Source: Candidatus Heimdallarchaeota archaeon
GTDB taxonomy: Archaea > Asgardarchaeota > Heimdallarchaeia > Heimdallarchaeales > Kariarchaeaceae
Assembly: GCA_030149205.1 (NCBI GenBank)
Contig: JASBSB010000001.1
Location: forward strand, 134,357 to 198,356
Length of the DNA: 64,000 bases
Reading direction: 5' to 3'
In this document: in pieces, positions 1 to 54,189 of the stretch
Numbering within the stretch: the stretch's first letter is position 1
Layout of the letters: each line of letters begins with the position of its first letter
Notes under the pieces: model-generated
The model's database searches: none
Seen by the model: only the letters and a program-made list of their open reading frames with translations
Told to the model about the DNA's origin: nothing
Program-made: the position numbers and the translations under genes

Positions 1-552
1 TCAATAGTAGATTCTTATCAACAAAAAGCTGCGAAATTACCACTCCCTAAAATTCTGCTCAAGTTAATCAGTTTACTGATAGAGGGAGTACAAGCTAAGA
101 TAAAGATTCTATAAATTATAATTGTAAAATCATATTTGCTCTAATGTCGATTTTTGATTTTAAATTTGTTCATGAAAGGTATTGTCCATTGTAACCAGAA
201 CATCCCAATGAATTTGGGATTAAAATGAAAGAAATAGTTATTGATCGTAAAAAGAGAAGAGAAGAGTTGAAAACCAATATGGGTAGTTATCTAATTTAGT
301 GGTTTAGGTAGTTTACTTTACTAAATTAATACAATATTACAGAAGATTACAAAGATTAGATGTTTTAATTGCAAATATCATAAAAAACATTTCATCTTAG
401 TAAATTTTTTAGTTTGTACTAAAGCAGAGTATTATTTCACAAAAAACAATCTAAGTTTGTTAGAACAGAAGATAAACAACCATTTTAAGGAAAAATATAT
501 GCAAAAAGAAATTTAAGTTCGGGTTAATTCTTTTCAATGACCTAATATAATT

Positions 553-1386
553 TCAAGTGTCAAACTCTAATAAATCTATAAAGTCACACAATTTACAAAA
601 TTGACATACCTTAGATGTGAAATCTTGTTCAGGTAACTTTTTTATATTATTTAATTGTTGTGATTTTTCGTATAAATTAGAAATCTCTTGCAATAATCCC
701 CCAATCGTTTTCTGGTCAATTTTTTGAATTTGATCAAATTTTGGTTTACTATACCAAAGTTCAAGATTTATTTGCTGGTCTGGAAAAGAACTGTATAATA
801 TTTCACCATAAATTTTTATTTGATTCTCATCTTCTAGTTTTGGAGTACCCGTTTTGTATTCAATTATTCGTAATCCACCTGTTTCAGAAAATGCTACCAA
901 GTCAATCTTACCACGTATTTGAAAATTGTGGTTAATTCTATTGATAACAGTAAATTCATCTTGAATTACAAGTGATGTTATCTCATTATTATTAATTGTA
1001 ACCAAACTTTCTGCCATAAGAGCAAGATTATGAAGTTGACTTGTAATTATATCAAAACTATTTGAAAATTCTTGGCGATGGTATTTCCATGGACCTGTAT
1101 TATTCATCCATATTTTTTTTATTGAATCTAATTCAATTTCCATTGATAATAATATTGCATCCTTTATATTCTTACTTTTACGGTGATAAAAAAATTCAAC
1201 ATTACTAAAATTTCTTAGGAATACTCTCTGTAAAATTAAATGTAAAAAATTTCCCGCGTATACAAATTTGTTAGGTGTAAATGGTATTTTTATCTCCTGT
1301 TGAGCATATAATACCTGTAACATTGTTCTTCTTTTACAATTAAATTCATTTACACTTGTAACTCCTAATCTTATTGATTTATTCAT
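553..1386 (-). CDS. Cas4/RecB-like PD-(D/E)XK nuclease with a predicted Fe-S cluster. It is the last gene of the Argonaute operon.
   Basis: Nuclease motifs are visible in the translation. Motif II is GKIDLVAF, motif III is IIEYKTG (E-x-K), and the QxxxY motif is QIKIYGEILY. There is one N-terminal Cys (NEFNCKRR) and a C-terminal CQFCKLC triad, the 1+3 cysteine pattern of Cas4/AddB-type nucleases. Its stop-start region overlaps the upstream gene by 8 nt. Confidence 0.6.
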   Translation of the reverse strand: MNKSIRLGVTSVNEFNCKRRTMLQVLYAQQEIKIPFTPNKFVYAGNFLHLILQRVFLRNFSNVEFFYHRKSKNIKDAILLSMEIELDSIKKIWMNNTGPWKYHRQEFSNSFDIITSQLHNLALMAESLVTINNNEITSLVIQDEFTVINRINHNFQIRGKIDLVAFSETGGLRIIEYKTGTPKLEDENQIKIYGEILYSSFPDQQINLELWYSKPKFDQIQKIDQKTIGGLLQEISNLYEKSQQLNNIKKLPEQDFTSKVCQFCKLCDFIDLLEFDT

Positions 1387-3157
1387 TTAATGTCCTCCTA
1401 TTTTCCAATAAAAATTCTGAAGAATAGTGCATAGCTAATCCAAGGATAAATGGAAATTTCGGTTTTGATAAACTGTATGGGTTTATGAAGGTTTGATAAA
1501 ATACATCTTGAAGTATTTCTTGGATATCATGCAATCCTTTGATTTTTTCAATAAATAATGGTTTGGGAATACCTTCAAATAAATCATTAGGATATCCATT
1601 TGTCATAATTAATGACTTGTTATCATTAATACTAACTGATAAGCCATCAATTGCTTTAGAAGTATTTTCGATCTGTCCATAAAGGATTGAGTGTGATGAA
1701 TTAACTAAAACTAAACAAAAATTATAATGGGAAATTTTATCAATTAAAGGTAATAACTGTCTGTCTGAAATTTGAATTAAGAAGTGGTCTGAATCACTAA
1801 AATTAATCAATTTTTGTAAGAAATCATTAATTTTAACTTTTTCATCGATATTTTTGTCTCTATCATTATAAAAAATATCATGTGAAATGTTAATATTTCC
1901 CTTATTAGAACTAACACCTGATAATATCATCCATTCTCCTGCATAATATGGTGTTATATGAAGAGCGATTATATTCTGATGATACTTCATTGATACATTT
2001 TGATATAATTTTCGAGTGTATCTAAATCTAATATTCAACCAAATTAGTTTTACAATTTTTCCCCAATCATCTTCTAATATTGTTGAAAATTTAATGATTT
2101 TATTTGGAATTACAATTTTTTCTTTAGTTTTATTGTATACATATCCTGAACCCTTTATTCTATCGTCGATACATATTATAGCTGCATCTGCCTCAAATTT
2201 ATGAAGCTTGGAGACATAATAGCTTTGAATTGTAATATTTAATCCTGTAACTTCTGCAAAATATGAAATAAAATTCTGAATCTTAATGGGGGTATTATCT
2301 GTCACAGATTTATCAATTAAAAATAATATATTGCTAATAAATGGATCAAATGAAATGTTATCCTCTAAAATATCTACTAATGGAGTAGTGTTTAAAGTTT
2401 CAATAGTGTTTGAATTGATTTTTATCGACGGACTATTTATTAAATCCCCTTTCAGATTCTCAATAACAGATAATCTTACATTTCCGATTTGATTTGTATT
2501 TATTACTTTGATTATTTTAAGGAATCTTTGTTCCACTGATTCAAAATTTCGATGTAATTGTAATACTTCTTTTTCTATTACACCAGGTATTAATTTATTA
2601 GATGTTAAGTTAAATGAATTTTCAGATATTTCATGTCTGGGATCATAAAAAACCATAACCTTATCATCTCGCATCTCATGGCATTCAAACCTTTCAGCTT
2701 GAAAAATCGAATACGTGAATGTTTCATTAAACTGTTCAACAGTTTTTTCTACGATAGGATTTATTCTTTGACTAGCTACTCCTTTAGATTTTCCAATAAA
2801 TGACAGTACCTCACTGGGTCTATAATAACCTTTGTTTGAAAATGTAATATATAAGGCTGTCAATACGAATATGTCAAGATTTTGTATTTCTTTCTTTTCA
2901 TTAATCTCTGTAGTACAGATTGAAACAGGGATTGTAGCAATCTCCAAATGTGAAGGTGGTTTTTGTGCGAAAAGGTAATATGAATCCTTTACATATATAA
3001 TTGTAAATGGAACATCTGATAAAAAATCACCATTTTTTAATGCAAAGGTCAGAAAGCTAAATTCATAGTTGTACTGCATGGAAACTTTGTACATTTTTAA
3101 TACAGCTGTATCAATTTGTGCTATCCAACCAAGTATTTTGCATATCATATAAACCAC
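1379..3157 (-). CDS. Hypothetical 592-aa protein, the fourth gene of the Argonaute operon. No recognised domain.
   Basis: It is a long uninterrupted ORF. It overlaps the upstream Argonaute gene by 13 nt and the downstream nuclease gene by 8 nt, which suggests translational coupling. I found no Walker A motif or other signature. The C-terminal approximately 100 aa (KPKFPFILGLAMHYSS) faintly recalls a PIWI C-terminus, but this is not convincing. Confidence 0.5.
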   Translation of the reverse strand: MVYMICKILGWIAQIDTAVLKMYKVSMQYNYEFSFLTFALKNGDFLSDVPFTIIYVKDSYYLFAQKPPSHLEIATIPVSICTTEINEKKEIQNLDIFVLTALYITFSNKGYYRPSEVLSFIGKSKGVASQRINPIVEKTVEQFNETFTYSIFQAERFECHEMRDDKVMVFYDPRHEISENSFNLTSNKLIPGVIEKEVLQLHRNFESVEQRFLKIIKVINTNQIGNVRLSVIENLKGDLINSPSIKINSNTIETLNTTPLVDILEDNISFDPFISNILFLIDKSVTDNTPIKIQNFISYFAEVTGLNITIQSYYVSKLHKFEADAAIICIDDRIKGSGYVYNKTKEKIVIPNKIIKFSTILEDDWGKIVKLIWLNIRFRYTRKLYQNVSMKYHQNIIALHITPYYAGEWMILSGVSSNKGNINISHDIFYNDRDKNIDEKVKINDFLQKLINFSDSDHFLIQISDRQLLPLIDKISHYNFCLVLVNSSHSILYGQIENTSKAIDGLSVSINDNKSLIMTNGYPNDLFEGIPKPLFIEKIKGLHDIQEILQDVFYQTFINPYSLSKPKFPFILGLAMHYSSEFLLENRRTLNE

Positions 3158-5346
3158 GGCTTTTTAAAATGGAAATTCGCCATATCTTTAGGAATTTTGC
3201 CCATACCTCTACTTGATGAATGAATTGGAACTGGGAGCTTAGTTTCAATTCTATCCCATCCAGAATAACAATGGCATAAATCAAAAATCTCATAAAGAAG
3301 TTTTTCAAATCTCTCCTCATCACATTTAATATTTCTTAATACAATTGGATTTTGAGTCCCAACATTTCCTTGTGTTGAAATTAAACCAACTTCAGTCTTA
3401 GATATCCAATAAAAAGTCCCAATATGTGGCCGAAATATTCTATTTTTTTCATTCTTTGAATAAATACGAAGTGGAGACGAAGAAATTACCTCAACAATTG
3501 AATGTTTTAAATTAAGAATATTAAGGCTATGTTCAATATCTTTTAATTCTCTATCATAAAATTTTCCATTCTTTATTAAAACTACTTCATCATTATTTTT
3601 AGTGAGTAACTTAAAAGCACTTTCAAAATTTTGTTGACGATTTTCGACGTTATCAGAAATGTAGTATCCTCCACTAAATCTACCCGAATTATAATATGAA
3701 TTTAGTAACCCCCGATATTTAGTTGCATCTAGTGAGATGTTTTGAGATTGCAAACCAATATATTTTACAAAACCATTTTCATTAACATTCAGTAACCATG
3801 AATGTAGACCTAACTTTGCAATTATACCCAAAAATATATTCCGAAAATACCCATTTTGTCTTGATTCAATTTTATCCTTCAGAACATTAAAATTAATTCC
3901 CTGATGAGGATATTCATTTTTTATTAATTCACCAGATACTAATTCTTTGAATTCACTATCTACACTATCATTATCAGAATGAACCACTATGATACAATTG
4001 TTGTTATTTACAAATTTATCCATATATTCTGATAAGTCTCCCTTTTTTTCGAGAAGTTTTATTTCATCAAACTCAATTTCTGTACTAAGAAATTGTTGAA
4101 GAATGATTATTTCTTTTGTTTCTTTTAGAAATGGCTTTTTTATTAATCCTAATTGATATTCATTATACTCTCGATATAATAAAATCGATATTTTTAACTT
4201 TTCGGGACCCTTATCAAATATCCCATATTTTTGAATTTCTAATGCTGGGTAATCAGTCCTATGTGAATTACCAATAATGTAATTATTCAAATCTAATAGT
4301 CCAGAGTTACATGAGTTCCAAGATTGAAAGTTTCTAATTGGATTTAGAGTTATTGAACCCACGGTTAAATTACCTATAAAACGCATATAATTCTGTGATC
4401 GTTTAAATCTAATCGGAGGGTCAGGCCTAATTTGTTTCATCAGGGCACCTCTATCATGATAATCCAAATGTGAAAATGTTGGTAATTCTCGAATTCTTTC
4501 TAAAGGGTATGAATAATACTCATCATTATCATTTTTATAGAATGATAACGCAATAGGTGGTTCATCTTGTATAAATTCACCAAGCACGGGTGCTCTAGGA
4601 CAAATGAATTTTTGTTTGTGAAACTCAATTATATCTAAATTATCAATTATTACCTCTGAAGGTTTCTTATTTACAATTTTTTTCAATTTCACAGTCTTCC
4701 CAGTTCCAGCATATCTACAGTTTGAGAAAGGATCCTGTTTTTCTGGACATTGAATAATTGGACAAGTATCTACATAATAATTTTTCGGATTTATTTCTAT
4801 ACTAGAATATGAAAGTTTCTCTCTCAATGATACGGATGAATGAAATTTATATTTGAGATCAACTATTACTCCAACTTCACCATTTTTAAGCAAAATTGGA
4901 GCATATTGAAATCCTGGGAAAACATCAATTTTTCCAAAACCCTCGATGGTCTCAGGGCTAGAAACCTCAAATATTGAATTGTAAGTTTCTTGTATCTTCC
5001 ATAATTTATTACTATGTCGTAAATTGACAGCAATAGCATCTCCAATAATTCTTTTCAATAGATCTAAATCATCATCATTTTGGGCTGAAACTAATCTACT
5101 AGTAGGAGGAAATAAATTTACTGCCAAATCTTTTTCGAAATCATCTTCAAGTAATTCGGTTGAAATTATCTTATCTCCAAATTGAATTATAATTTTACGT
5201 CGATTATCTGGAACTTTCCTAAGATTAAGTAATACATCACCAAGTTTTCGAAAGTTTATTTCTTCTTTTTTCCTATATTCAAAGACTGTAACTTTATCTT
5301 TGAATGGTGTTTTTTCAAATTTTAAAATATTAGTTATTATTTCCAT
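3145..5346 (-). CDS. Prokaryotic Argonaute (pAgo), a PIWI-domain protein that is predicted catalytically inactive (long-B-like).
   Basis: The C-terminal third aligns motif by motif to the PIWI domain of Argonautes. NIFLGIIAKLGLHSWLL matches NLCLKINVKLGGVNNIL. KYIGLQSQN matches FLGADVTH. VVLIKNGKF matches IIFYRDGVS. SIVEVISSSPLRIY matches ITFIVVQKRHHTRLF. PHIGTFYWIS matches IPAGTTVDTKI. The terminal KLPVPIHSS matches IPAPAYYAH. The DEDX catalytic positions are replaced (GLQSQ and KNG), so it is predicted slicer-dead. At 733 aa it has the size of a long pAgo. Confidence 0.6.
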   Translation of the reverse strand: MEIITNILKFEKTPFKDKVTVFEYRKKEEINFRKLGDVLLNLRKVPDNRRKIIIQFGDKIISTELLEDDFEKDLAVNLFPPTSRLVSAQNDDDLDLLKRIIGDAIAVNLRHSNKLWKIQETYNSIFEVSSPETIEGFGKIDVFPGFQYAPILLKNGEVGVIVDLKYKFHSSVSLREKLSYSSIEINPKNYYVDTCPIIQCPEKQDPFSNCRYAGTGKTVKLKKIVNKKPSEVIIDNLDIIEFHKQKFICPRAPVLGEFIQDEPPIALSFYKNDNDEYYSYPLERIRELPTFSHLDYHDRGALMKQIRPDPPIRFKRSQNYMRFIGNLTVGSITLNPIRNFQSWNSCNSGLLDLNNYIIGNSHRTDYPALEIQKYGIFDKGPEKLKISILLYREYNEYQLGLIKKPFLKETKEIIILQQFLSTEIEFDEIKLLEKKGDLSEYMDKFVNNNNCIIVVHSDNDSVDSEFKELVSGELIKNEYPHQGINFNVLKDKIESRQNGYFRNIFLGIIAKLGLHSWLLNVNENGFVKYIGLQSQNISLDATKYRGLLNSYYNSGRFSGGYYISDNVENRQQNFESAFKLLTKNNDEVVLIKNGKFYDRELKDIEHSLNILNLKHSIVEVISSSPLRIYSKNEKNRIFRPHIGTFYWISKTEVGLISTQGNVGTQNPIVLRNIKCDEERFEKLLYEIFDLCHCYSGWDRIETKLPVPIHSSSRGMGKIPKDMANFHFKKPWFI

Positions 5347-5348
5347 AT

Positions 5349-6035
5349 TTATCTCTCTTTGTTTTTAAGTAACTCAAATGAACTTATCACCGCAAGGTCT
5401 GTGTTAACCGTTTTTGTTAGTATTTTCTTACAAGCTGAATGCATTATGAAAAATCCTGTACCTAACGCAGTTTTCATTAACTCGTTTTTTGCGGATTGCA
5501 ATAAAATATCATTAACTATTATTTCAGGATGAACTGATGTTGAAAAATATACTTGGATTGTAAATGAACTCGTATCATCCAAAAACAAAAAAGAATTTAT
5601 TCCATCTTTTTTCCAATTACACTTCAGTGAAAAAAGATCTTCAATTCTTGAATTAAACCCGTCTAATCTATTAAATTCTTCGCTAATTTCTTTGATAGGT
5701 AGTATAATTGAAGATTTTAACAAATAATTCCCCATAACTCTCAGGTGCCAATTAGAATTAAATTTATCTACGTCTAATACTTGTATAGTTTGATTGGATT
5801 GATACAATCCTGTATCTTCTTCATAAGAAAGCAGATTATCTTTAGTTAATTGGCTAAGTATCATTTCAACTTCTACATTTGGTATATGATCAAAATATAG
5901 ATTACTTCTCCCAGAACTCATCCAAATATGTTTCACTATATTTGATTTTTTTGCACTACCATAATCTCGCAGGAAATCAAGAATTAATTTTTTAATTGCT
6001 TTCTCCATTGAATCTTTAGGTTTCATATCAATCAC
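5349..6035 (-). CDS. Hypothetical 228-aa protein with a putative N-terminal winged-helix domain, the second gene of the Argonaute operon.
   Basis: Its start overlaps the upstream gene by 4 nt, and it ends 2 nt before the Argonaute start. The N-terminal approximately 70 aa (EKAIKKLILDFLRDYGSAKKSNIVKHIW...ILSQLTKDNLLSYEE) has a wHTH-like pattern. The rest is unassigned. Confidence 0.45.
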   Translation of the reverse strand: MIDMKPKDSMEKAIKKLILDFLRDYGSAKKSNIVKHIWMSSGRSNLYFDHIPNVEVEMILSQLTKDNLLSYEEDTGLYQSNQTIQVLDVDKFNSNWHLRVMGNYLLKSSIILPIKEISEEFNRLDGFNSRIEDLFSLKCNWKKDGINSFLFLDDTSSFTIQVYFSTSVHPEIIVNDILLQSAKNELMKTALGTGFFIMHSACKKILTKTVNTDLAVISSFELLKNKER

Positions 6036-7072
6036 CTGACTATCTCCTTAATCTTTGACTTTAGTTCTTCAGAATTATCTACAATTACAACATTCTTAAA
6101 ATTGTAGCGTATTTCATCATAATATTGATTAGAATTGTTTAAAATAATAAAATGGGTAATATCAATAAACGAAGTAAAAGCAAAATTAATTTCATCTACC
6201 TCTTCAGAAGGTAAATGCATATCTACAATCCATAATCCAATTTTTAGGTTATTCAATTCAATGTAAATGGGAATTGTTATACTCTCATTCTGACTATTTG
6301 TAATCTTTATTTCCTTACGGATAAAAATTGGATTGAATTCTTGAATTACATTGAGGAAGCTTTGACCAATTTTCTCCTGTAAATACTTGAAATCATCACT
6401 GAAAGCCGGAATTCCAGATATTTCCTCAAAATCTTTTGCTGTGTATTTTGTTCTCATTTGAGAGCTTGATTTTGTAATTATTTGTTCTATTATATCTTGA
6501 AATATTTGTTTAGGATTACGAATTAGAATATTATATTTTGATAGCTCTTCAAGACATTTACTCTTAATATTATCGAATGGACTTGATGGATGATTGGGGG
6601 CAAAATAATTCCAAACAAATTCTATTTTTTTGAATACTTCAATTTTTTTCTGATCTGTGAATTTTCCTTTGAAAAGAGAATTTATTCTACCTTTATCAGC
6701 ATTTGAAATTTCTAAATTGTTCTGAAGGTTTTGTTGAATTTGCAGTAGTTCAGTAATTTCTGCATTCCAACCCGATTGAGTTGTAAATCGAAATTTAATT
6801 TCTTTTCCAGATAAATTTTTTTCATCTTCCTGTATGAACTTTGTTAAAATTGGTATCAAACTTGATTTATTCCAGACACTATGTTCTTTTTTCTTTACCT
6901 GTTCAAATATAAAGTACCCAGTATATTCTATGTTAATATCTTCTAATTCATCATCCTTTGATTCAAATTCAATTGATAAAATCTGATCTCCTTTAATGAA
7001 TTCAATGACTCTTAGTACTCCAACCATATTTTGGTAATTAATACCATAGTTTGTATCAATTCCACTTGGCAA
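6032..7072 (-). CDS. Hypothetical 346-aa protein, the first gene of the Argonaute operon, with a TTG start.
   Basis: It is a long ORF. The start codon at 7070..7072 is TTG and there is no in-frame ATG upstream. It overlaps the next gene by 4 nt. No recognisable motif. A weak PD-(D/E)XK-like D...EQVK patch lies near the N-terminus. Confidence 0.45.
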   Translation of the reverse strand: MPSGIDTNYGINYQNMVGVLRVIEFIKGDQILSIEFESKDDELEDINIEYTGYFIFEQVKKKEHSVWNKSSLIPILTKFIQEDEKNLSGKEIKFRFTTQSGWNAEITELLQIQQNLQNNLEISNADKGRINSLFKGKFTDQKKIEVFKKIEFVWNYFAPNHPSSPFDNIKSKCLEELSKYNILIRNPKQIFQDIIEQIITKSSSQMRTKYTAKDFEEISGIPAFSDDFKYLQEKIGQSFLNVIQEFNPIFIRKEIKITNSQNESITIPIYIELNNLKIGLWIVDMHLPSEEVDEINFAFTSFIDITHFIILNNSNQYYDEIRYNFKNVVIVDNSEELKSKIKEIVR

Positions 7073-7090
7073 TATTTTAAATCTAGTTTT

Positions 7091-7102
7091 CTTTATAATA
7101 AT
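7091..7102 (-). promoter_or_regulatory. Putative TATA box for the pAgo operon, implying a leaderless transcript.
   Basis: The minus strand reads ...gaattattataaagaaaactagatttaaaatatt-TTG. The TTATTATAAAG element lies about 25-30 nt upstream of the first codon. Confidence 0.3.
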
Positions 7103-7430
7103 TCAGAGATATTGTAATAATCAAAATGAAAGTTTTAAAAATTTAAATATACAATATGTGATATCAAAAAAATTTTATTGCAAAGACTTAAAATAAATGA
7201 GAACTCGAAGCTGGATAAAGACCTATAACCGTGATTTCCTTGAAATATCTCGGATATAATCAAGAAAATAAATTAGTAAATCTAAATCTTGATTGAAATA
7301 TTCTTCGTCTACTAATTATTCTTATTATATTGTTATCTTATAAGAGTTGGAAGTACACAGATATTCGACTTGCTAAGTCAGTATACAATATATATTCAAC
7401 CAGTATCTTTCAACTATGACTACCAATTCC

Positions 7431-7440
7431 AAAAAAAAAA
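7431..7440 (-). terminator. Oligo-T terminator downstream of the DUF4238 gene.
   Basis: A10 on the plus strand equals T10 on the minus strand. It begins 14 nt after the DUF4238 stop codon at 7455..7457. This is typical archaeal intrinsic termination. Confidence 0.4.
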
Positions 7441-7454
7441 TGAAATTGAATGAA

Positions 7455-8597
7455 TTAATCCAGGTGTTTATTGTTTTTCTTAATATGCTGCAATGTATCT
7501 TCATTGTGAGCTGCCAAATACTCAAAAGAATTGTCATACATAGTTTGATTTAATCTATGAATAATGTCACTTTTTACGAAAATACTATATTCAACAGGAG
7601 TTTTGTTATCAATTGTAGATAAATTATTTGTTATGTATTTCATAAAATTTTCCAGATTTAACAATCCTATCGCAATTGTGGGATTAATTGGTATGTAATA
7701 TTCTAACATAACTGATACTCCATTTACTATTAACTCTGCTATAATCAATGGATTGTCTGAAGTAATTAATTCTACAGGGTGGTCTTGAGGATTTAGTCCA
7801 GATAGATTAATTATGATGATCGGCCTGAGTTCAGTATGTTTTAGTGGTTTATCAACTGTTTCATCAGGCAATTTTTGTAAAACTTCTCTGATTTTATTTT
7901 CAATTTCGATTTGACTATCTTTATGATCTAAAGATTTCTTTATTCCGATACTAATATTTTTACTTATTAAGGATATCATACCTTGTAAGTCGTTTTTTAA
8001 AAAATACCCCTGTGCTTTTTGTAAAAACACCTCGTCATATTTAATATTACTTTGATATAGAATCTCCTGTGTTTCAGTGCTAATAAAACTAAAATCCAAT
8101 ATCTTACTAAATTTCATGTAATTTCTAAATGAAGGTGTTCTAAACGTTAGATGATTAATAAAATCACATAAAATTTCGAAATTTGATTGCAAATGCATAG
8201 CATCTATGAAAGTCTCCGCAAATTTTTTTATATCTAATGATTTTTTGAATATGTTATCTCTATTACTAGGGTTGTAAATTTTTATTTTCTCAGTTTGAAA
8301 ATTTAATTTTTCTAATCCAGTAAAGAACTTAGCGACTTTATCCTCAGCTTCACTCATCAAATCGTCAATCAGTTCCTCTAAAAACCTTGGAGAATAAAAA
8401 CTTTGATTAATCTTTTTTTTGTCAATATCCCCAGTCTTTTTGTTCAACCTAAATACTCTTTTCTTTTTGTTATCTTTTTCAAAATCCTCCTCAATAACAA
8501 AATTTCGTAGAAACCACTGAGGAATATAATGTTGTTTTCTGCCTGACATGAACATAACTGTGGAATAATTGTATATTATAGTATTTGAACGAGACAT
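7455..8597 (-). CDS. DUF4238-family protein, a candidate stand-alone defence gene.
   Basis: The N-terminal motif GRKQHYIPQWFLRNF is the hallmark HY(I/V)PQ(F/W)(Y/F)L+xF signature of DUF4238. It is a single gene with its own oligo-T terminator. Confidence 0.55.
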   Translation of the reverse strand: MSRSNTIIYNYSTVMFMSGRKQHYIPQWFLRNFVIEEDFEKDNKKKRVFRLNKKTGDIDKKKINQSFYSPRFLEELIDDLMSEAEDKVAKFFTGLEKLNFQTEKIKIYNPSNRDNIFKKSLDIKKFAETFIDAMHLQSNFEILCDFINHLTFRTPSFRNYMKFSKILDFSFISTETQEILYQSNIKYDEVFLQKAQGYFLKNDLQGMISLISKNISIGIKKSLDHKDSQIEIENKIREVLQKLPDETVDKPLKHTELRPIIIINLSGLNPQDHPVELITSDNPLIIAELIVNGVSVMLEYYIPINPTIAIGLLNLENFMKYITNNLSTIDNKTPVEYSIFVKSDIIHRLNQTMYDNSFEYLAAHNEDTLQHIKKNNKHLD

Positions 8598-8704: not shown

Positions 8705-9319
8705 CTACGAATCGAAACCTTCAATTTCTTCAAGATCGTCATAGGTCTGTCTAACTGCTTGATGAACTTGATCTTCGGTCTTTGCACCAGTACACACAAG
8801 ATTCCCACTTTGGAAGAGCAACAATACTGTTTTAGGTTCTTTTAATCGATAGATAAGTCCAGGAAACTGCTCAGGTTCATACATTGATTGTTCTAACCAC
8901 ATGTTTGCGGCTTCAAGGTTAATCACCCTATTGTTGAAATTCCCAGAGGCAACAATATTTTGGACGATAATTTCAGGAGTCTCTTCAATGGTTGTGCCCA
9001 CAGTTCTTAGGATATCAATCATCTGATAAACACCTTGATGAACCATTTCCTCAGATTTTGCACCCGTTATAACCAGTTTACCACTTGAAAACACAAGGGA
9101 TGAGATTTTAGGCTTTTTAGTTTTTAAGATCAGACCAGGAAACTGTTCTGGGTTATAGCTTACTTCTAATTCATCATCATCAATTAACTGTTGAAAGATA
9201 CTGACTAAATCTATGTTTGTGAACAGGTTAACTGAAGCTACACAGTTTTGGATTATAATTTTGAAATCTAATCCGTCGTCTTTGTTTTTTTCTCTTGAGG
9301 GAAGTGTTTCTTGACTCAT
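8705..9319 (-). CDS. tbp: TATA-box binding protein.
   Basis: Two direct repeats are present (…LVITGAKSEEMVHQGVYQ… and …LVCTGAKTEDQVHQAVRQ…). The protein is 204 aa with an acidic C-tail. Confidence 0.9.
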   Translation of the reverse strand: MSQETLPSREKNKDDGLDFKIIIQNCVASVNLFTNIDLVSIFQQLIDDDELEVSYNPEQFPGLILKTKKPKISSLVFSSGKLVITGAKSEEMVHQGVYQMIDILRTVGTTIEETPEIIVQNIVASGNFNNRVINLEAANMWLEQSMYEPEQFPGLIYRLKEPKTVLLLFQSGNLVCTGAKTEDQVHQAVRQTYDDLEEIEGFDS

Positions 9320-9461
9320 CTTGATTCAAAATGATTAAGAACTTGCTCTTTTATAAGGCTTAGTAAAAATATCTTTTATTTTGTATGTTCTGATACATAA
9401 AAACACACGCTTGAATTGTAAAGAGAATGCATTTTTCTACAATTTTCCTACGACACAGTAA

Positions 9462-10007
9462 CTATTTTCTTACAAGCTTTTGGTTATCTTGAATCTTCCC
9501 AGCAATTTGCTCAATTTTTAATTCTAGAACCTTGATGATTTTTGTATTGTCGAACTCTTCAAGTGTTTCCCCACATTTTGGACAGATGAAATCATACTCC
9601 ATAGCTTCGTTGAACGTCAAACGGTAACACTCCTTCTTTCCACATGTGAAAAACATGTTTTCCTTCTCATGTTGAAGCCGTTCCATAAGTTTCCATTGTA
9701 TTGCCCTCTGTTTCTTAATAACGACAGAGTTTATGTTTTCAGTCAGTAGTTTCCAAAAATAAATATACCAACCTGTGTTTTTATCCCTGATCCTACGAAA
9801 ACTTGCTATCTCCAAATCATGGAGTTTATACAAGGATTTTCTAACCTCATCAAGTTTAATGTTTAGCTCATCTGCTATAAATTCATCTGTAACCTCTTCA
9901 TCTTGATCAATAAGTAGAATGGTTACTTTTCGGATCTCAGGTCCGGCTACATCCTCCACCATATCTAATAATGTTTGTCTTTCTTGCTCGTTAACTACCA
10001 AATCCAC
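9462..10007 (-). CDS. tfe: Transcription factor E alpha subunit (TFIIE-alpha homolog).
   Basis: It has an N-terminal winged helix followed by a C-terminal zinc ribbon (CGKKEC...CPKCGETL). The 181-aa size and its position next to tbp fit. Confidence 0.75.
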   Translation of the reverse strand: MDLVVNEQERQTLLDMVEDVAGPEIRKVTILLIDQDEEVTDEFIADELNIKLDEVRKSLYKLHDLEIASFRRIRDKNTGWYIYFWKLLTENINSVVIKKQRAIQWKLMERLQHEKENMFFTCGKKECYRLTFNEAMEYDFICPKCGETLEEFDNTKIIKVLELKIEQIAGKIQDNQKLVRK

Positions 10008-51211: not shown

Positions 51212-52645
51212 TTAACGGCTGTTTCGACCATCTCTGCCTTTTTTTAACCTGCGTGAGTGGAGTAAGGACTTTAAATCTCTTGGTTTTTCTCTCTCTTCTT
51301 TGAGATTTTTAATTCTACGTTGGTTAAGATGTTCCTCCCAGAATTTCTTCCTCTCTTGAAAATTCATCCTAGACATATCATCAGGTTCAACTTTGTTTCC
51401 TTGAATTATGTTTCTTTTAAACCGTTTTTCCAAACTTTGACTTCCCTTAGAACTGGTTTCAGAACCCGTTTCAGAACTCGCAGCGGAACTAGTGGAAGAA
51501 GAAATATCAACCCTTGAAATTCTGTTTTCCCATAATTTCTTTCTCTCTTCAAATTGTTCCTTAAAATTTTTTAATTCATTTAACCTACTTGACTTTTTAG
51601 AGGTTACCTCAGTCTTTTGATTTCGAACACCTATTCTCGAAGGTGATCGGGGAGTAACAGAAATAGGTTCAGCCATTACATCCCCAATTTTTTGATAAAC
51701 CCTATGACTACCAGATATTGTTTTAAGAGTGTTTTTCCAACTTCCAAAAAGAGTTTCAGTTCTCCCAATGATTAAGAACCCACCAGGGTTCAATGATTCT
51801 ACAAATTTCTCAATTATCCTCCTCTGTTCCTGCTTATCAATATAAATTAAAACATTTCTGCAGAAAATTGCATCAAATCCCTTTGGATAGGTATCTTTAT
51901 TGAGATCGTGTAAAGAGAAGTTTACTCTATTACGAATTTCCTTATTTACCTTGTAATACCCTTCCCCTGTAAGTTTAAAATATTTTGTGGCTTCAATCTT
52001 ACGAGTCTCACTTAAATAAGAGCCATCGTAAGTCGCATGTCGAGCAATTTCGAGTAAATCTGGATTGACGTCTGTGGCTAAAATTCTCAACCTCAGGTCA
52101 TTTGTTCTTAATTTGTCTTCGAATATCATTGAGATCGTATAAGGTTCTGCTCCCACTGCGCACCCTGCTGACCAAATTTTGATTTCACTCCCTTTCCTCG
52201 AACCATTGGAAGTGATCTGTGGTACAATATGATCTCTCACAAGTTCAAATGTATCTCTGTTTCTGAAGAATCGAGTTACATTGATTGACAATGACTCCTT
52301 GATTTTCGAAATTTCACCAAAATTTCTTTTGATATAGGCCAAATACTCAGAATAAGAACTCATGTTTAACCTATTCATTCTCATCCTTATCCTACGAGTG
52401 ATATATCGCTCTTTGTAAGCTGAGGTTTCGATTCCTTGCTTTTTAAGATGAGATAGCAAATAAGGCAGGTTGGTCTCATCTAGTTTACGCTCTTTTGTAT
52501 TAATTGAAAATAGCCGTTCAGAAACAGTTGAATTACCCTTTCGAGGCGATTTACTTGAAGTTTTGTTCAAATAAGATTCTGGACCTAATCCCCGACCGAG
52601 GGTTGCTCCTTTTGCAACTTTTGGTTTATCTTTACCTGAGACCAC
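51212..52645 (-). CDS. CheR-type protein-glutamate O-methyltransferase homolog with basic N- and C-terminal extensions.
   Basis: The CheR N-domain is present (LPYLLSHLKKQGIETSAYKERYITRRIRMRM...TRFFRNRDTF). The SAM-binding core is present (IKIWSAGCAVGAEPYTISM; FDAIFCRNVLIYIDKQEQRRII...LNPGGFLIIGRTE). The C-terminus is serine/lysine-rich and about 170 aa long. Confidence 0.65.
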   Translation of the reverse strand: MVSGKDKPKVAKGATLGRGLGPESYLNKTSSKSPRKGNSTVSERLFSINTKERKLDETNLPYLLSHLKKQGIETSAYKERYITRRIRMRMNRLNMSSYSEYLAYIKRNFGEISKIKESLSINVTRFFRNRDTFELVRDHIVPQITSNGSRKGSEIKIWSAGCAVGAEPYTISMIFEDKLRTNDLRLRILATDVNPDLLEIARHATYDGSYLSETRKIEATKYFKLTGEGYYKVNKEIRNRVNFSLHDLNKDTYPKGFDAIFCRNVLIYIDKQEQRRIIEKFVESLNPGGFLIIGRTETLFGSWKNTLKTISGSHRVYQKIGDVMAEPISVTPRSPSRIGVRNQKTEVTSKKSSRLNELKNFKEQFEERKKLWENRISRVDISSSTSSAASSETGSETSSKGSQSLEKRFKRNIIQGNKVEPDDMSRMNFQERKKFWEEHLNQRRIKNLKEEREKPRDLKSLLHSRRLKKGRDGRNSR

Positions 52646-52680
52646 AATAATAATAAGATTTACTCAAATAAAACTCTTAT

Positions 52681-54189
52681 CTATCTTTTTAACTTTCTAA
52701 TAATTACCAAAATTAGTGTGAAAATAACGAATGAGATAATCGTAAAGGGAACAGGAGTAGTTTTGCTGTCAAACTGAGCGGACAAAATCCCTGAATTTTT
52801 GATTTGTCTAACCCATAGCCCATTAGAGTTTTGACTATCTAGCAAGGTAGTTGTTAATCTTTGAATTGTATTGTTGACTATCCCCGATAGTTGGAGAATC
52901 CGCAAAGTTTCATAATTTTTAGCCAAAACCTGCAATACCCCAGCTATACCTTCAGAATAGGAAAGATCGAAAAATCGATCTTCTTTATTAGACGAGTGGA
53001 TCAGATAATAATTCCAACTACCTGTTTGGACGTTGGTTACATTCACAATTTGTGAGTTAAGAAAGTCAAGAAAGGCAGATTTTAGAGATGTCTGTTGAGT
53101 CCGAGTAAGTTTATTATAACTACTCAAAAGGAAATCAAAAACACCAAGGACACCTGAACTTAGGGAGTTTAGTTGAATTGAACTGTTCGGTTGCACGTGA
53201 AAATAGGGGGAGACAGAGGAAAGTTTATTCATCACTAATTGGAGTGGTGTTTGTATCTCTTTTGAATAATCAGTTTGTGAGCTTCCTAAAGATTCAAGGA
53301 TACCAGAGACACCTGAATTAAGATTGTAATTAAGCTCAGTTGTATCGTTTTCCGTATTCCAAAGACCATTGGGTAGCTGCCTAGAGACCAAGTAGGAATA
53401 CACCTTTTTGGAAAAATCTAATATTGAGGAATTTTGACTTATTCCTGCAAAATTTTGAAGTGATAGGGCTATTCCTGCCATTCCCTTCCCATATCCGTAT
53501 ATTTCAACTCCAGCAAACCCCTTTTCAAATGGGTACCAAGGTATTGATATCCCCGATTGGTGTTTGGTTGAAATTGAATACAACCAATTCACTACTTTTT
53601 CTCCCCATTTAAGATAGGTTTGATTCTTTGTTAATTTATACAAGGAACCAACTGCTCCTAAGATTCCTGCTGAGCCGAATTCAAGTCCTGACAGAGGGAT
53701 GCCAAATGCTTTGCTCACATTTGAATCCGCATATCCCCAGAAAGCCTTGTTTCCATCCAAAATTGAGCGGGTAAATAATAAATTGAGGGCGGACTGAGCC
53801 TGGTCAAACCAAATCCTATTCTTTGAAAAATTGTAATAGGACAACAACGAATTAATTATTCCTGACTGACCATATTTATCACCAACATAAATTACTGAAT
53901 AATTATCAACCGTTTTTCGCCAAAGGGAGAGGGGGGTCCCATATAGGTCATTTATACGCTCATTTAAAAGGCCCTGATAAAATTGACTTAAGCTCCTGTT
54001 TACTTCACCCTGTAACTTAACTGGGAGAATAGGGTAGACTTTAATCAAAGTTTTTGCAATACCAGCCCCACCATATTCAAATCCCAGGTATGTTGAATAG
54101 TCTTGTTCTGGAAGCGGTGGTGCTTGAGAATGAACTGTCAGAGGCAAAATAAGAATTAATACTATAAATAACCCGGAAAATAACCTCAC
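52681..54189 (-). CDS. Secreted, C-terminally anchored protein with LanC-like (alpha/alpha-toroid) GxxG repeats.
   Basis: It has a signal peptide. There are about 7 spaced G-x-(A/S)G(I/V) repeats (GGAGIA, GQSGII, GSAGILGAVGSL, GMAGIALSL, SGVSGILESL, EGIAGVLQVL). A C-terminal TM segment is followed by a basic tail. The Zn-ligand C/H motifs of true LanC proteins are absent. Confidence 0.35.
   Translation of the reverse strand: MRLFSGLFIVLILILPLTVHSQAPPLPEQDYSTYLGFEYGGAGIAKTLIKVYPILPVKLQGEVNRSLSQFYQGLLNERINDLYGTPLSLWRKTVDNYSVIYVGDKYGQSGIINSLLSYYNFSKNRIWFDQAQSALNLLFTRSILDGNKAFWGYADSNVSKAFGIPLSGLEFGSAGILGAVGSLYKLTKNQTYLKWGEKVVNWLYSISTKHQSGISIPWYPFEKGFAGVEIYGYGKGMAGIALSLQNFAGISQNSSILDFSKKVYSYLVSRQLPNGLWNTENDTTELNYNLNSGVSGILESLGSSQTDYSKEIQTPLQLVMNKLSSVSPYFHVQPNSSIQLNSLSSGVLGVFDFLLSSYNKLTRTQQTSLKSAFLDFLNSQIVNVTNVQTGSWNYYLIHSSNKEDRFFDLSYSEGIAGVLQVLAKNYETLRILQLSGIVNNTIQRLTTTLLDSQNSNGLWVRQIKNSGILSAQFDSKTTPVPFTIISFVIFTLILVIIRKLKR

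What the first reader, a model, noticed from the sequence alone, without database searches (positions are those of the whole stretch)
3145..5346. PIWI domain with all catalytic positions substituted (a long-B-like inactive pAgo).
The C-terminal approximately 250 aa aligns block by block with Argonaute PIWI. The KLGG-like block is present as KLGL. Both the GxDVxH and RDG blocks are present but mutated. The C-terminal IPAPxYYA block reads LPVPIHSS. The first Asp of DEDX is Gln (GLQSQ) and the RDG Asp is Asn (KNG). This implies guide-directed binding without slicing, which usually means signalling to a partner effector.
Basis: partly seen in the sequence, partly recalled or inferred. Interest (0 to 1): 0.7.

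Follow-up and report, generated by a model that had tools for sequence, protein, structure and literature searches.

The report
Dead archaeal Argonaute paired with second Argonaute
The gene encodes a full-length archaeal Argonaute that has lost its cutting residues and sits in a conserved five-gene operon with a second, degenerate Argonaute copy and two intact nucleases, so it most likely works as a nucleic-acid sensor that switches on partner nucleases in defence against invading DNA.

Summary

"Long-B-like" is not supported. Sequence profiles and fold searches put it closest to long-A pAgos (CpAgo, CbAgo, CtAgo, AaAgo), well ahead of long-B RsAgo and EcAgo. The nearest relatives outside its family are canonical DEDX pAgos.

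It belongs to a rare, apparently archaeal family: 65 clusters among 1.84 billion representatives. All 26 full-length members aligned carry four invariant cysteines inserted at the L1/PAZ junction.

The new information is the context. In 12 loci (20-64% pAgo identity to the window's protein) the pAgo is flanked by:
- a small upstream protein;
- a second, highly diverged catalytically dead Argonaute paralogue (hhalign 98.9%, E 1e-17), which keeps a basic 5'-end pocket that the long pAgo here has partly lost;
- a Cas4-family nuclease with intact motifs.

A variable upstream slot holds a Cap4-like nuclease (as here), a metallophosphatase or a membrane protein.

Best reading: a guide-directed sensor that activates a swappable effector. 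I found no paper describing a two-Argonaute operon.

The parts
3145..5346 (-). Long, catalytically inactive Argonaute (733 aa; N-L1-PAZ-L2-MID-PIWI)
3148..3849 (-). PIWI domain (about residues 500-733). Catalytic positions: Q533 (nt 3748-3750), N593 (3568-3570), S712 (3211-3213). Glutamate-finger region: E568 (3643-3645) and Q571 (3634-3636). Conserved C-terminal PWFI.
   Evidence: Alignments to CtAgo, CpAgo and CbAgo. Per-member residue table. Codons verified. Secondary structure agrees with an RNase H-like fold: strand 527-536, helix 567-581, strand 587-593, helix 706-717.
3814..3948 (-). MID 5'-end pocket positions: K467, S471, Q482, K511, in place of the canonical Y-K-Q-K. This is a partly degenerate pocket.
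   Evidence: Alignment to the CpAgo motif SYNPFK...PSQ. Family table: distant members without a paralogue keep Y-x3-K, while most near-clade members have lost the Tyr. Q482 and K511 are conserved across the family.
4600..4764 (-). Four-cysteine insertion at the L1/PAZ junction (C195, C200, C210, C249); presumed metal-binding site
   Evidence: The four cysteines are invariant in all 26 aligned family members at 19-64% identity. They are absent from the nearest DEDX-complete relatives. Query residues 185-221 correspond to only about 15 residues of CpAgo. Metal binding itself has not been shown.
1379..3157 (-). Second Argonaute paralogue: 592 aa from GTG 3157, or 589 aa from ATG 3148 as in the public gene call. 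An unassigned N-terminal region of about 200 aa is followed by a diverged L2-MID-PIWI. It is catalytically dead. Conserved pocket: Y341-x3-K345...P351-x-K353 (nt 2099-2137) and R379 (nt 2021-2023).
   Evidence: hhalign of the 9-member family against the pAgo family: probability 98.9%, E 1.3e-17, 352 columns, paralogue 233-590 against pAgo 344-722 (98.1% with 6 sequences). PADLOC pAgo models hit 3 of 9 members, best E 4e-19. Invariant residues. dN/dS 0.27. It overlaps the pAgo stop by 4-13 nt.
553..1386 (-). Cas4-family PD-(D/E)xK nuclease (277 aa) with intact motifs
   Evidence: Pfam PDDEXK_1 E 5e-11, above the cut-off; Dna2 5.8e-5. PADLOC Cas4c, Cas4 and Aga_Cas4-like_Nuc. Invariant C17 plus C261/C264/C267, D162, E176-x-K178, Q189, Y193 in 6 orthologues. 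Weak PDB hits to Cas4 (SSO0001, Pcal_0546) and to ACE1 9iab.
5349..6035 (-). Small conserved partner protein (228 aa; 225 aa in the public call); possible N-terminal winged helix
   Evidence: A gene of 219-274 aa lies immediately upstream of the pAgo in every locus whose upstream flank is held, including distant ones without the paralogue (L010, L015, L019; L014 holds only a gene cut by the contig end). It is poorly conserved. Winged-helix Pfam hits occur only in two distant members (DUF7347 6.6e-6, HTH_20 5e-5); the window protein itself has none.
6032..7072 (-). Cap4-like PD-(D/E)xK DNA endonuclease (346 aa); candidate effector. First gene of the operon.
   Evidence: Pfam Cap4_nuclease E 1e-9, 39.4 bits against a cut-off of 26.2, residues 3-202. 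Weak PADLOC LmuA and HamA hits. PDB best hit is AbpA 8zue, E 1.6e-4. Invariant E37, E44, D45, Q58, K60. Other loci have a metallophosphatase or a 2-TM protein in this slot.

Best explanation
The 733-aa protein is a full-length Argonaute that cannot slice. It is the sensor subunit of a five-gene archaeal defence operon.

Proposed mechanism:
1. The long pAgo, probably in complex with the adjacent degenerate Argonaute paralogue and the small upstream protein, holds a short nucleic-acid guide.
2. The complex recognises complementary invader nucleic acid.
3. Target binding activates the co-encoded effector. Here that is a Cap4-like PD-(D/E)xK DNase; in sister loci it is a metallophosphatase or a membrane protein. 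The effector degrades DNA or kills the cell, as in long-B BPAN/BPAM and short-pAgo systems.
4. The conserved Cas4-family nuclease most likely makes or trims guides, as ACE1 does for the structurally closest solved pAgo, CtAgo. Alternatively it helps degrade the target.

Shown here:
- the fold;
- loss of D1, D2 and the fourth catalytic residue;
- long-A affinity;
- the conserved operon;
- intact nuclease motifs;
- purifying selection.

Inferred, not shown:
- complex formation;
- guide use and guide type;
- which nuclease is the effector and which processes guides;
- the defence role.
For: Identity and inactivity:
-.

Operon structure:
- The five genes lie on one strand with 2-nt gaps or 4-13-nt overlaps.
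- The order small protein, pAgo, paralogue, Cas4-like nuclease recurs in 12 loci at 20-64% pAgo identity. These are the window plus L001, L003, L004, L006, L007, L011, L012, L013, L016, L017 and L018.
- The upstream slot varies. It holds a Cap4-like nuclease, a Metallophos protein (L017, L018) or a 2-TM protein (L013). This is the effector-swapping pattern known from long-B and short pAgo systems (PMC10620215).

Nucleases and selection:
- Catalytic motifs are invariant in both nucleases.
- All five genes show dN/dS of 0.16-0.27.

Context and precedent:
- The operon lies in a low-GC stretch, 0.27-0.29 against about 0.35 in the rest of the window. This is consistent with horizontal acquisition.
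- Surveys report that DEDX-less long-A pAgos are enriched for operon-encoded nucleases, including Cas4 (PMC6299218).
Against: - There are no experimental data for any member of the family.
- The canonical 5'-phosphate pocket of this pAgo is half gone (K467/S471 in place of Y/K), so normal guide loading is not assured.
- No known sensor or adaptor domain was found on the Cap4-like nuclease. The three alternative effectors share no detectable common domain.
- The window's small protein has no detectable domain.
- The roles of the two nucleases cannot be told apart from sequence.
- The neighbourhood within the window shows no other recognised defence genes apart from a DUF4238 gene. The flanking genes are housekeeping genes (TBP, TFE).
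Confidence: 0.55

Rival explanations
1. The two Argonautes form an obligate heterodimer that divides the guide-binding work. The short paralogue anchors the 5' end with its intact Y-K-K-R pocket. The long pAgo supplies the N/PAZ lobe, the 3'-end binding site and the cysteine module. Neither is functional alone.
For: - All four pocket positions (Y341, K345, K353, R379) are invariant in the paralogue across 9 sequences at 20-50% identity.
- The long pAgo here has K467/S471 at the first two positions. Most near-clade pAgos have lost the Tyr.
- Cys4-family pAgos from loci without a paralogue (P0020, P0024, P0045) keep the canonical Y-x3-K.
- The two genes overlap and are always adjacent.
Against: - The correlation is imperfect. 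P0016 keeps Y-x3-K yet has a paralogue-like neighbour. Several near-clade pAgos keep K or R at the second position.
- The long pAgo keeps Q482, K511 and the conserved C-terminal PWFI, which normally completes the pocket.
- No structure or complex prediction was possible for the paralogue.
- No split of this kind between two Argonautes is known.
Confidence: 0.2
2. The system is not immune. The inactive pAgo and its nucleases act in host DNA transactions such as repair, recombination or replication termination, or serve a mobile element.
For: - Some pAgos have been linked to replication and recombination (cited in PMC11217426).
- Cas4/RecB-family and Mre11-like metallophosphatase enzymes are classic repair enzymes.
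- Sister sub-clades of the same pAgo family pair with a primase-like protein or an RNase_H_2/HHH protein.
- The locus is flanked by housekeeping genes.
Against: - The family is extremely rare and patchy: 65 clusters among 1.84 billion.
- The locus has low GC relative to its surroundings.
- The effector slot is swappable and includes a membrane protein. These are hallmarks of defence modules, not core repair.
- No integrase or transposase lies beside the operon in the window.
Confidence: 0.15
3. The pAgo still cleaves nucleic acid, using a non-canonical active site (for example E568 plus other residues) or a metal centre at the cysteine cluster.
For: - An acidic residue is frequent at positions 567-569 in the family.
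- The distant member P0024 has D at D1, E at D2 and D at position 4.
- The four invariant cysteines could hold a redox or metal cofactor.
Against: - Both metal-binding aspartates are replaced by amides in the window protein (Q533, N593), and by S, H or other non-acidic residues in near relatives, without any conserved substitute.
- All studied Argonautes lacking these residues are inactive (PMC6299218).
- The cysteine module lies at the L1/PAZ junction, far from the PIWI site in sequence.
Confidence: 0.05
4. It is a decaying relic: a pseudogenised Argonaute with no function.
For: - Loss of catalytic residues and part of the MID pocket.
- No Pfam hit for the protein itself.
Against: - The 733-codon frame is intact.
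- dN/dS is 0.16 at saturated dS.
- Fifty invariant positions across 11 near-clade members.
- A confident AF2 fold.
- Operon synteny is conserved down to 20% pAgo identity.
Confidence: 0.02

Closest known systems
APACE1 systems: cyanobacterial long-A pAgo (CtAgo, MaAgo) plus the Cas4-family enzyme ACE1 (PMC12094033)
   Same: - Both are full-length long-A-type pAgos.
- Both are co-encoded with a Cas4-family nuclease of about 277 aa that has one N-terminal and three C-terminal cysteines and a D...(D/E)xK motif.
   Different: - APACE1 pAgos have an intact DEDX tetrad and cleave DNA themselves. This one has Q533, N593 and S712.
- APACE1 is a two-gene, cyanobacteria-only system. This is a five-gene archaeal operon with a second Argonaute, a small partner protein and a separate swappable effector.
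- The match of the Cas4-like protein to ACE1 is only marginal (E 0.11).
Long-B pAgo effector systems: BPAN, BPAS and BPAM (Song et al. 2023, PMC10620215)
   Same: - An inactive full-length pAgo is co-encoded with a toxic effector that differs between loci (nuclease, or membrane protein).
- The mechanism proposed here copies BPAN: guide-directed target recognition activates a PD-(D/E)xK DNase, leading to collateral DNA degradation.
   Different: - This protein is not a long-B pAgo by similarity: RsAgo E 7e-5 and EcAgo E 1e-7, against CpAgo E 1e-29.
- The effector nuclease is of the Cap4/HamA/LmuA type.
- The operon has three extra conserved genes, including a second Argonaute and a Cas4-family nuclease.
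Split and heteromeric Argonautes: AfAgo with AfAgo-N, short pAgo with APAZ partners (SPARTA, SPARDA), SiAgo with Aga1/Aga2
   Same: - The Argonaute function is spread over more than one polypeptide and coupled to a separate effector.
- SiAgo uses a membrane effector, as locus L013 may.
   Different: In those systems a MID-PIWI protein pairs with an N-L1-L2 (APAZ) protein, which together rebuild one Argonaute. Here a complete long Argonaute pairs with a second MID-PIWI-containing paralogue, giving two PIWI modules per system.
DEDX-less long-A pAgos catalogued by Ryazansky et al. 2018 (PMC6299218), and the PADLOC models PDLC02428 'PprPIWI' and PDLC02436 'pAgo'
   Same: - This is the same class: a long-A lineage with PIWI* and MID* variants.
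- 53% of such operons carry nucleases, including Cas4.
- The two PADLOC models each recognise 25 of 26 family members, so relatives were already present in defence catalogues.
   Different: In the papers I could search I found no description of the four-cysteine insertion, the paired paralogue or the five-gene architecture. The origin of the PADLOC model name could not be traced.

Membership tests
Argonaute/PIWI superfamily (long pAgo) | MID and PIWI (RNase H-like) domains with Argonaute topology | tested here: met
   [not shown]
Argonaute/PIWI superfamily (long pAgo) | N, L1, PAZ and L2 domains present (long rather than short) | tested here: met
   [not shown]
Argonaute/PIWI superfamily (long pAgo) | Canonical MID 5'-end pocket (Y/H/R-K-Q-K) | tested here: not met
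   The positions read K467, S471, Q482, K511, so only the last two are canonical. This corresponds to a 'MID*' variant in the sense of PMC6299218. It is not disqualifying for the superfamily.
Slicing-competent Argonaute | DEDX catalytic tetrad | tested here: not met
   D1 is Q533, D2 is N593, X is S712; the E position is ambiguous (Q571 or E568). None of the 26 family members has a complete tetrad.
Long-A pAgo clade | Phylogenetic placement of MID-PIWI with long-A references | tested here: inconclusive
   No tree was built. The proxies all point to long-A:
- near-clade profile E 1e-29 to 8e-18 for CpAgo, CbAgo, CtAgo and AaAgo, against 1e-7 to 7e-5 for EcAgo, AfAgo and RsAgo;
- the nearest out-of-family representatives are DEDX-complete with Y-x3-K.
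Long-B pAgo clade | Clusters with RsAgo-type proteins; always DEDX-less; usually a reduced PAZ* | tested here: not met
   [not shown]
APACE (long-A pAgo plus ACE Cas4-family enzyme) | Co-encoded Cas4-family nuclease with D-(D/E)xK and 1+3 cysteines | tested here: met
   Pfam PDDEXK_1 E 5e-11. C17 plus C261/264/267, D162 and E176-x-K178 are invariant. It lies immediately downstream in the same operon.
APACE (long-A pAgo plus ACE Cas4-family enzyme) | Catalytically active pAgo mediating siDNA-guided cleavage | tested here: not met
   The tetrad is lost. Activity itself cannot be tested with these tools.
APACE (long-A pAgo plus ACE Cas4-family enzyme) | Nuclease falls in the ACE1 or ACE2 clade of the Cas4 tree | not tested
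   There is only a marginal HMM hit to CtACE1 9iab (E 0.11), and slightly better hits to CRISPR Cas4 (E 0.011-0.033). No phylogeny was made.
Cap4-type nuclease (Pfam PF14130; CBASS Cap4, HamA, LmuA, AbpA relatives) | N-terminal PD-(D/E)xK domain matching PF14130 with conserved D...QxK | tested here: met
   39.4 bits against a cut-off of 26.2, covering 199 of 200 profile positions. E44-D45 and Q58-x-K60 are invariant in 5 orthologues. AbpA 8zue E 1.6e-4.
CBASS Cap4 effector proper | C-terminal SAVED or other cyclic-nucleotide sensor, with a CD-NTase in the operon | tested here: not met
   No Pfam, NCBIfam or PADLOC hit beyond residue about 213. There is no cyclase in the operon.

The most novel reading that the evidence does not exclude
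This may be a previously undescribed 'double-Argonaute' immune sensor of archaea. A full-length but catalytically dead, long-A-derived pAgo carries a four-cysteine metal site and a degraded 5'-end pocket. It works as an obligate heteromer with a truncated Argonaute paralogue that keeps the 5'-end pocket. Guide or target binding is therefore shared between two PIWI proteins. The complex is served by a dedicated Cas4-family guide-processing nuclease and is wired to interchangeable effectors (Cap4-like DNase, metallophosphatase or membrane protein).
Probability: 0.25. Interest if true: 0.8.

Novelty: new variant of a known kind. Interest (0 to 1): 0.62.

Why it matters
Inactive Argonautes that signal to effectors are now a recognised defence strategy. 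All characterised cases are short or long-B pAgos with one Argonaute per system. This locus matters for three reasons:
- The same logic arose independently inside the long-A, slicing lineage.
- It offers a conserved operon with two Argonaute paralogues, for which I found no precedent in the searchable literature.
- It links a Cas4-family nuclease, a likely guide maker as in APACE1, to an effector-type system.

If the two Argonautes do form a heteromer, this would be a new way of building a guide-binding machine. It would also be a natural experiment on which Argonaute parts are needed for sensing and which for cutting. The invariant cysteine cluster in the PAZ lobe is a second untested feature. 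Practical value is modest until biochemistry exists.

Tried and rejected
- **AF2 with two sequences:** the alignment of the two close orthologues failed (pLDDT 30). The 26-sequence family alignment was needed.
- **Word-indexed homologue searches:** these returned only the protein itself and one 64% orthologue, even with a family profile. The exhaustive representative search was what found the family.
- **Contig scans:** the genome-contig scan found only the known orthologue. It worked with the 11-member alignment.
- **AFDB fold library:** not available.
- **Paralogue N-terminus:** no significant similarity between the paralogue's first 200 or so residues and the pAgo N/L1 region (0.6% probability). 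No solved-structure hit for the paralogue beyond its PIWI C-terminus.
- **Small 228-aa protein:** no hits in Pfam, NCBIfam, PADLOC or PDB. The winged-helix idea rests only on distant homologues.
- **Shared docking domain among effectors:** none found.
- **MID-pocket complementarity:** the idea that this pocket is always lost when a paralogue is present was weakened by P0016.
- **Literature searches that found nothing:** 'PprPIWI', 'PNTD1', the SRA run, Nitrososphaera pAgo, zinc/PAZ, and two-Argonaute operons. The pAgo-associated PrimPol paper concerns bacterial long-B loci, not this family.
- **Other scans:** plasmid tblastn gave only a distant haloarchaeal Piwi protein. tRNA and Rfam scans of the window were empty. 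The bacterial promoter/terminator scan is uninformative for an archaeon.
- **Host lineage:** could not be determined beyond 'archaeon'.

Full report
**1. What is at the coordinates**

ORF 3145..5346 on the minus strand is an uninterrupted 733-codon frame. It is the third of five co-directional genes:
- 6032-7072, 346 aa
- 5349-6035, 228 aa
- 3145-5346, 733 aa
- 1379-3157, 592 aa
- 553-1386, 277 aa

The genes are separated by 2 nt or overlap by 4-13 nt, so they form an operon. This stretch has 27-29% GC against about 35% in the rest of the window.

The window is an archaeal chromosome. TBP and TFE lie just upstream, and a thermosome subunit, class I LysRS and other housekeeping genes lie further on. 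I could not fix the host lineage. The same contig is in NCBI (995 kb) and in a Logan assembly.

**2. Check of the observation**

Pfam does not recognise the protein, but other evidence for a PIWI domain is strong:
- PADLOC Argonaute models score E 1e-39 and 9e-29.
- phmmer against PDB finds one Argonaute, CtAgo 9iad (E 2e-5). Its alignment places GLQ under GLD, KNG under RDG, and the third serine of HSSS under the catalytic Asp of FGSD.
- A profile of 26 family members hits CpAgo (5e-46), CbAgo (6e-41), AaAgo (4e-38), CtAgo (3e-33) and KmAgo (1e-30), with the same register.

The catalytic positions in this protein are therefore:

| Position | Residue here |
|---|---|
| D1 | Q533 |
| D2 | N593 |
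| Fourth (X) | S712 |
| Glutamate finger | Q571 by alignment; E568 nearby |

Transferring CbAgo E577 through the profile alignment gives Q571. E568 lies three residues upstream, at the N-terminus of the helix that follows strand 557-566. The loop alignment is not reliable enough to decide between them. So 'all four substituted' should read 'three of four certainly'.

None of the 26 family members has a full tetrad.

**3. Structure**

AF2 with two sequences failed (pLDDT 30). With the 26-member alignment it gave pLDDT 91.7 and pTM 0.89.
- Foldseek matches full-length Argonautes: KmAgo 3e-33, CbAgo 1e-32 with TM 0.70, and CpAgo.

The protein is therefore a complete N-L1-PAZ-L2-MID-PIWI Argonaute. 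The mutated positions sit on the expected RNase H-like elements: strand 527-536, strand 587-593 and helix 706-717.

**4. Which kind of pAgo**

That is right as a functional analogy (inactive and full-length) but not as a family assignment.
- With a profile built only from the 11 closest members, long-A references score E 1e-29 to 8e-18. EcAgo, AfAgo and RsAgo score 1e-7 to 7e-5.
- The next-best representatives outside the family have GxD, RDG, (S/A)DK and Y-x3-K. They are ordinary active long-A-type pAgos.
- Surveys already note that 21% of long-A pAgos lost DEDX in several independent events, and that 53% of those have nucleases in their operons, including Cas4 (PMC6299218).
- No formal tree was built, so the placement is by proxy.

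**5. The family**

An exhaustive HMM search of 1.84 billion cluster representatives found only 65 clusters with E up to 1e-3, and 23 with E up to 1e-30.

All 26 full-length members aligned share four invariant cysteines: C195, C200, C210 and C249. Three of them lie in an insertion of about 22 residues between L1 and PAZ, relative to CpAgo. Outgroup pAgos lack them. A structural metal site is the obvious reading, but it is unproven. I found no mention of it in the literature I could search.

The C-terminal PWFI is also conserved.

The MID 5'-end pocket positions read as follows:

| Protein | Position 1 | Position 2 | Position 3 | Position 4 |
|---|---|---|---|---|
| Canonical pAgo | Y | K | Q | K |
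| This long pAgo | K467 | S471 | Q482 | K511 |

Distant family members keep Y-x3-K. An example is P0020, which is encoded in the public assembly GCA_000698785.1, record CP007536.1; I recall this record as Nitrososphaera viennensis EN76, but no tool output named the organism. Most near relatives have lost the Tyr.

**6. The neighbour is a second Argonaute**

The 592-aa ORF downstream gave only weak PIWI C-terminal hits on its own. A 9-member family profile, however, aligns to the pAgo family at 98.9% probability, E 1.3e-17, over 352 columns (98.1% with 6 sequences). Paralogue residues 233-590 align to pAgo residues 344-722, which covers L2-MID-PIWI.
- Three paralogue family members hit PADLOC pAgo models directly (E 4e-19). 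These are the same models that best match the long pAgo. This fits an origin by duplication.
- The paralogue has no conserved acidic residues at the catalytic positions.
- All four MID pocket positions are invariant and basic or aromatic: Y341, K345, K353 (in place of Q) and R379 (in place of K).
- Its first 200 or so residues match nothing.

**7. The other genes**

- **277-aa protein.** This is a Cas4-family PD-(D/E)xK nuclease: Pfam E 5e-11, with one N-terminal and three C-terminal cysteines, and D162, E176-x-K178, Q189 and Y193 all invariant.
- **346-aa protein.** It has an N-terminal Cap4-type nuclease domain above Pfam's threshold, with invariant ED...QxK. It is nearest to AbpA in PDB. 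About 140 C-terminal residues are unassigned, and there is no SAVED domain.
- **228-aa protein.** It has no detectable domain. A gene of 219-274 aa sits immediately upstream of the pAgo in every locus whose upstream flank is held, including distant ones (L014 holds only a gene cut by the contig end). Two distant homologues show weak winged-helix hits.

**8. Comparative genomics**

The block small protein, pAgo, paralogue, Cas4-like nuclease recurs in 12 loci at 20-64% pAgo identity. These are the window plus L001, L003, L004, L006, L007, L011, L012, L013, L016, L017 and L018.

The gene in front of this block varies:
- a Cap4-like nuclease in most loci;
- a calcineurin-like metallophosphatase in L017 and L018;
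- a 250-aa protein with two N-terminal transmembrane helices in L013.

This is the effector-swapping pattern seen in long-B BPAN/BPAS/BPAM and in short-pAgo systems (PMC10620215). More distant Cys4-pAgos lack the paralogue. They pair instead with a primase-small-subunit-like protein (L015, L019) or an RNase_H_2/HHH protein (L014), or have only the small upstream gene next to them (L010).

All five window genes are under purifying selection against the 64%-identical orthologous locus. dN/dS is 0.16-0.27 with dS of 1.2-1.5, which is near saturation.

**9. Mechanism**

*Best-supported model (confidence about 0.55).* The dead long pAgo, probably with its paralogue and the small protein, senses invader nucleic acid through a guide. 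It then activates the variable effector, which here is a Cap4-like DNase. The Cas4-family nuclease produces or trims guides, by analogy with ACE1 of APACE1, whose pAgo is the closest solved structure (PMC12094033).

Shown here: fold, residue losses, operon conservation, intact nuclease motifs and purifying selection. Inferred: all protein-protein interactions, guide chemistry, the division of labour between the two nucleases, and the defence role itself.

*Rival explanations:*
- An obligate double-Argonaute heteromer that splits 5'-end and 3'-end binding (about 0.2). The complementary pocket conservation supports it. P0016, which keeps Y-x3-K although it has a paralogue, weakens it.
- A repair or mobile-element role rather than immunity (about 0.15).
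- Residual non-canonical catalysis (about 0.05).
- A pseudogene (about 0.02), contradicted by the conservation data.

**10. Novelty and verdict**

The inactive PIWI by itself is ordinary. Inactive long-A pAgos with nuclease partners have been catalogued, and PADLOC models recognise this family.

What I did not find described is the following combination:
- a conserved two-Argonaute operon;
- an invariant Cys4 insertion in the PAZ lobe;
- a Cas4-family nuclease and a separate swappable effector in the same system.

I rate it a new variant of a known kind, with interest 0.62. The literature library is incomplete, so prior description elsewhere cannot be excluded.

Noticed in passing
window 7455-8597 (-): A 380-aa DUF4238 protein (Pfam E 6e-15) lies directly upstream of the operon on the same strand, in the low-GC stretch. 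It is absent from the orthologous loci examined, so it is probably not part of the system. Its function is unknown.
   Followed up: partly
window 1-8000: GC is 27-29% across the operon and the DUF4238 gene, against 32-39% in the rest of the window. This suggests a horizontally acquired island inserted next to the TBP and TFE genes (8705-10007). No integrase, tRNA or flanking repeat was seen inside the window. The left edge of the island may lie beyond position 1.
   Followed up: partly
L015 2370-6239 and L019 694-4570: A side branch of the same Cys4-pAgo family (P0045, P0024) has a different three-gene layout: a protein of about 240 aa with weak DUF7347 (winged-helix) hits, the pAgo, and a protein of about 293 aa with a DNA_primase_S hit. 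P0024 has D at D1, E at D2 and D at the fourth position, so it might retain activity.
   Followed up: no
L014 260-4060: Another family member (P0025) is followed by a 484-aa protein with RNase_H_2 and HHH domains instead of the paralogue and the Cas4-like nuclease.
   Followed up: no
L010 7189-14257 (public record CP007536.1, assembly GCA_000698785.1): The record CP007536.1, which I recall as the cultured ammonia oxidiser Nitrososphaera viennensis EN76 (no tool output named the organism), encodes a Cys4-family pAgo (P0020). This pAgo hits Pfam Piwi and has D at D1, E at D2 and N at the fourth position. Only a 269-aa gene lies directly upstream, and a 1120-aa SMC_N/AAA_23 protein lies downstream. 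If my recollection of the organism is right, it would be a tractable organism for testing the family.
   Followed up: no
L013 5330-6509: In the locus with the membrane-protein effector, a 122-aa nucleotidyltransferase (NTP_transf_2, E 8e-5) and an unassigned 263-aa protein lie just upstream. They may be a separate toxin-antitoxin-like pair or extra components.
   Followed up: no
window 3145-3157: The paralogue ORF can start at GTG 3157 (592 aa) or ATG 3148 (589 aa, the public gene call). The ATG overlaps the pAgo stop codon in an ATGA arrangement, which suggests translational coupling.
   Followed up: yes
window 51212-54189 (-): A CheR methyltransferase (E 1e-54) lies next to a LanC-like protein (E 5e-12) in an archaeal chromosome. 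This is unrelated to the finding and was only noted.
   Followed up: no
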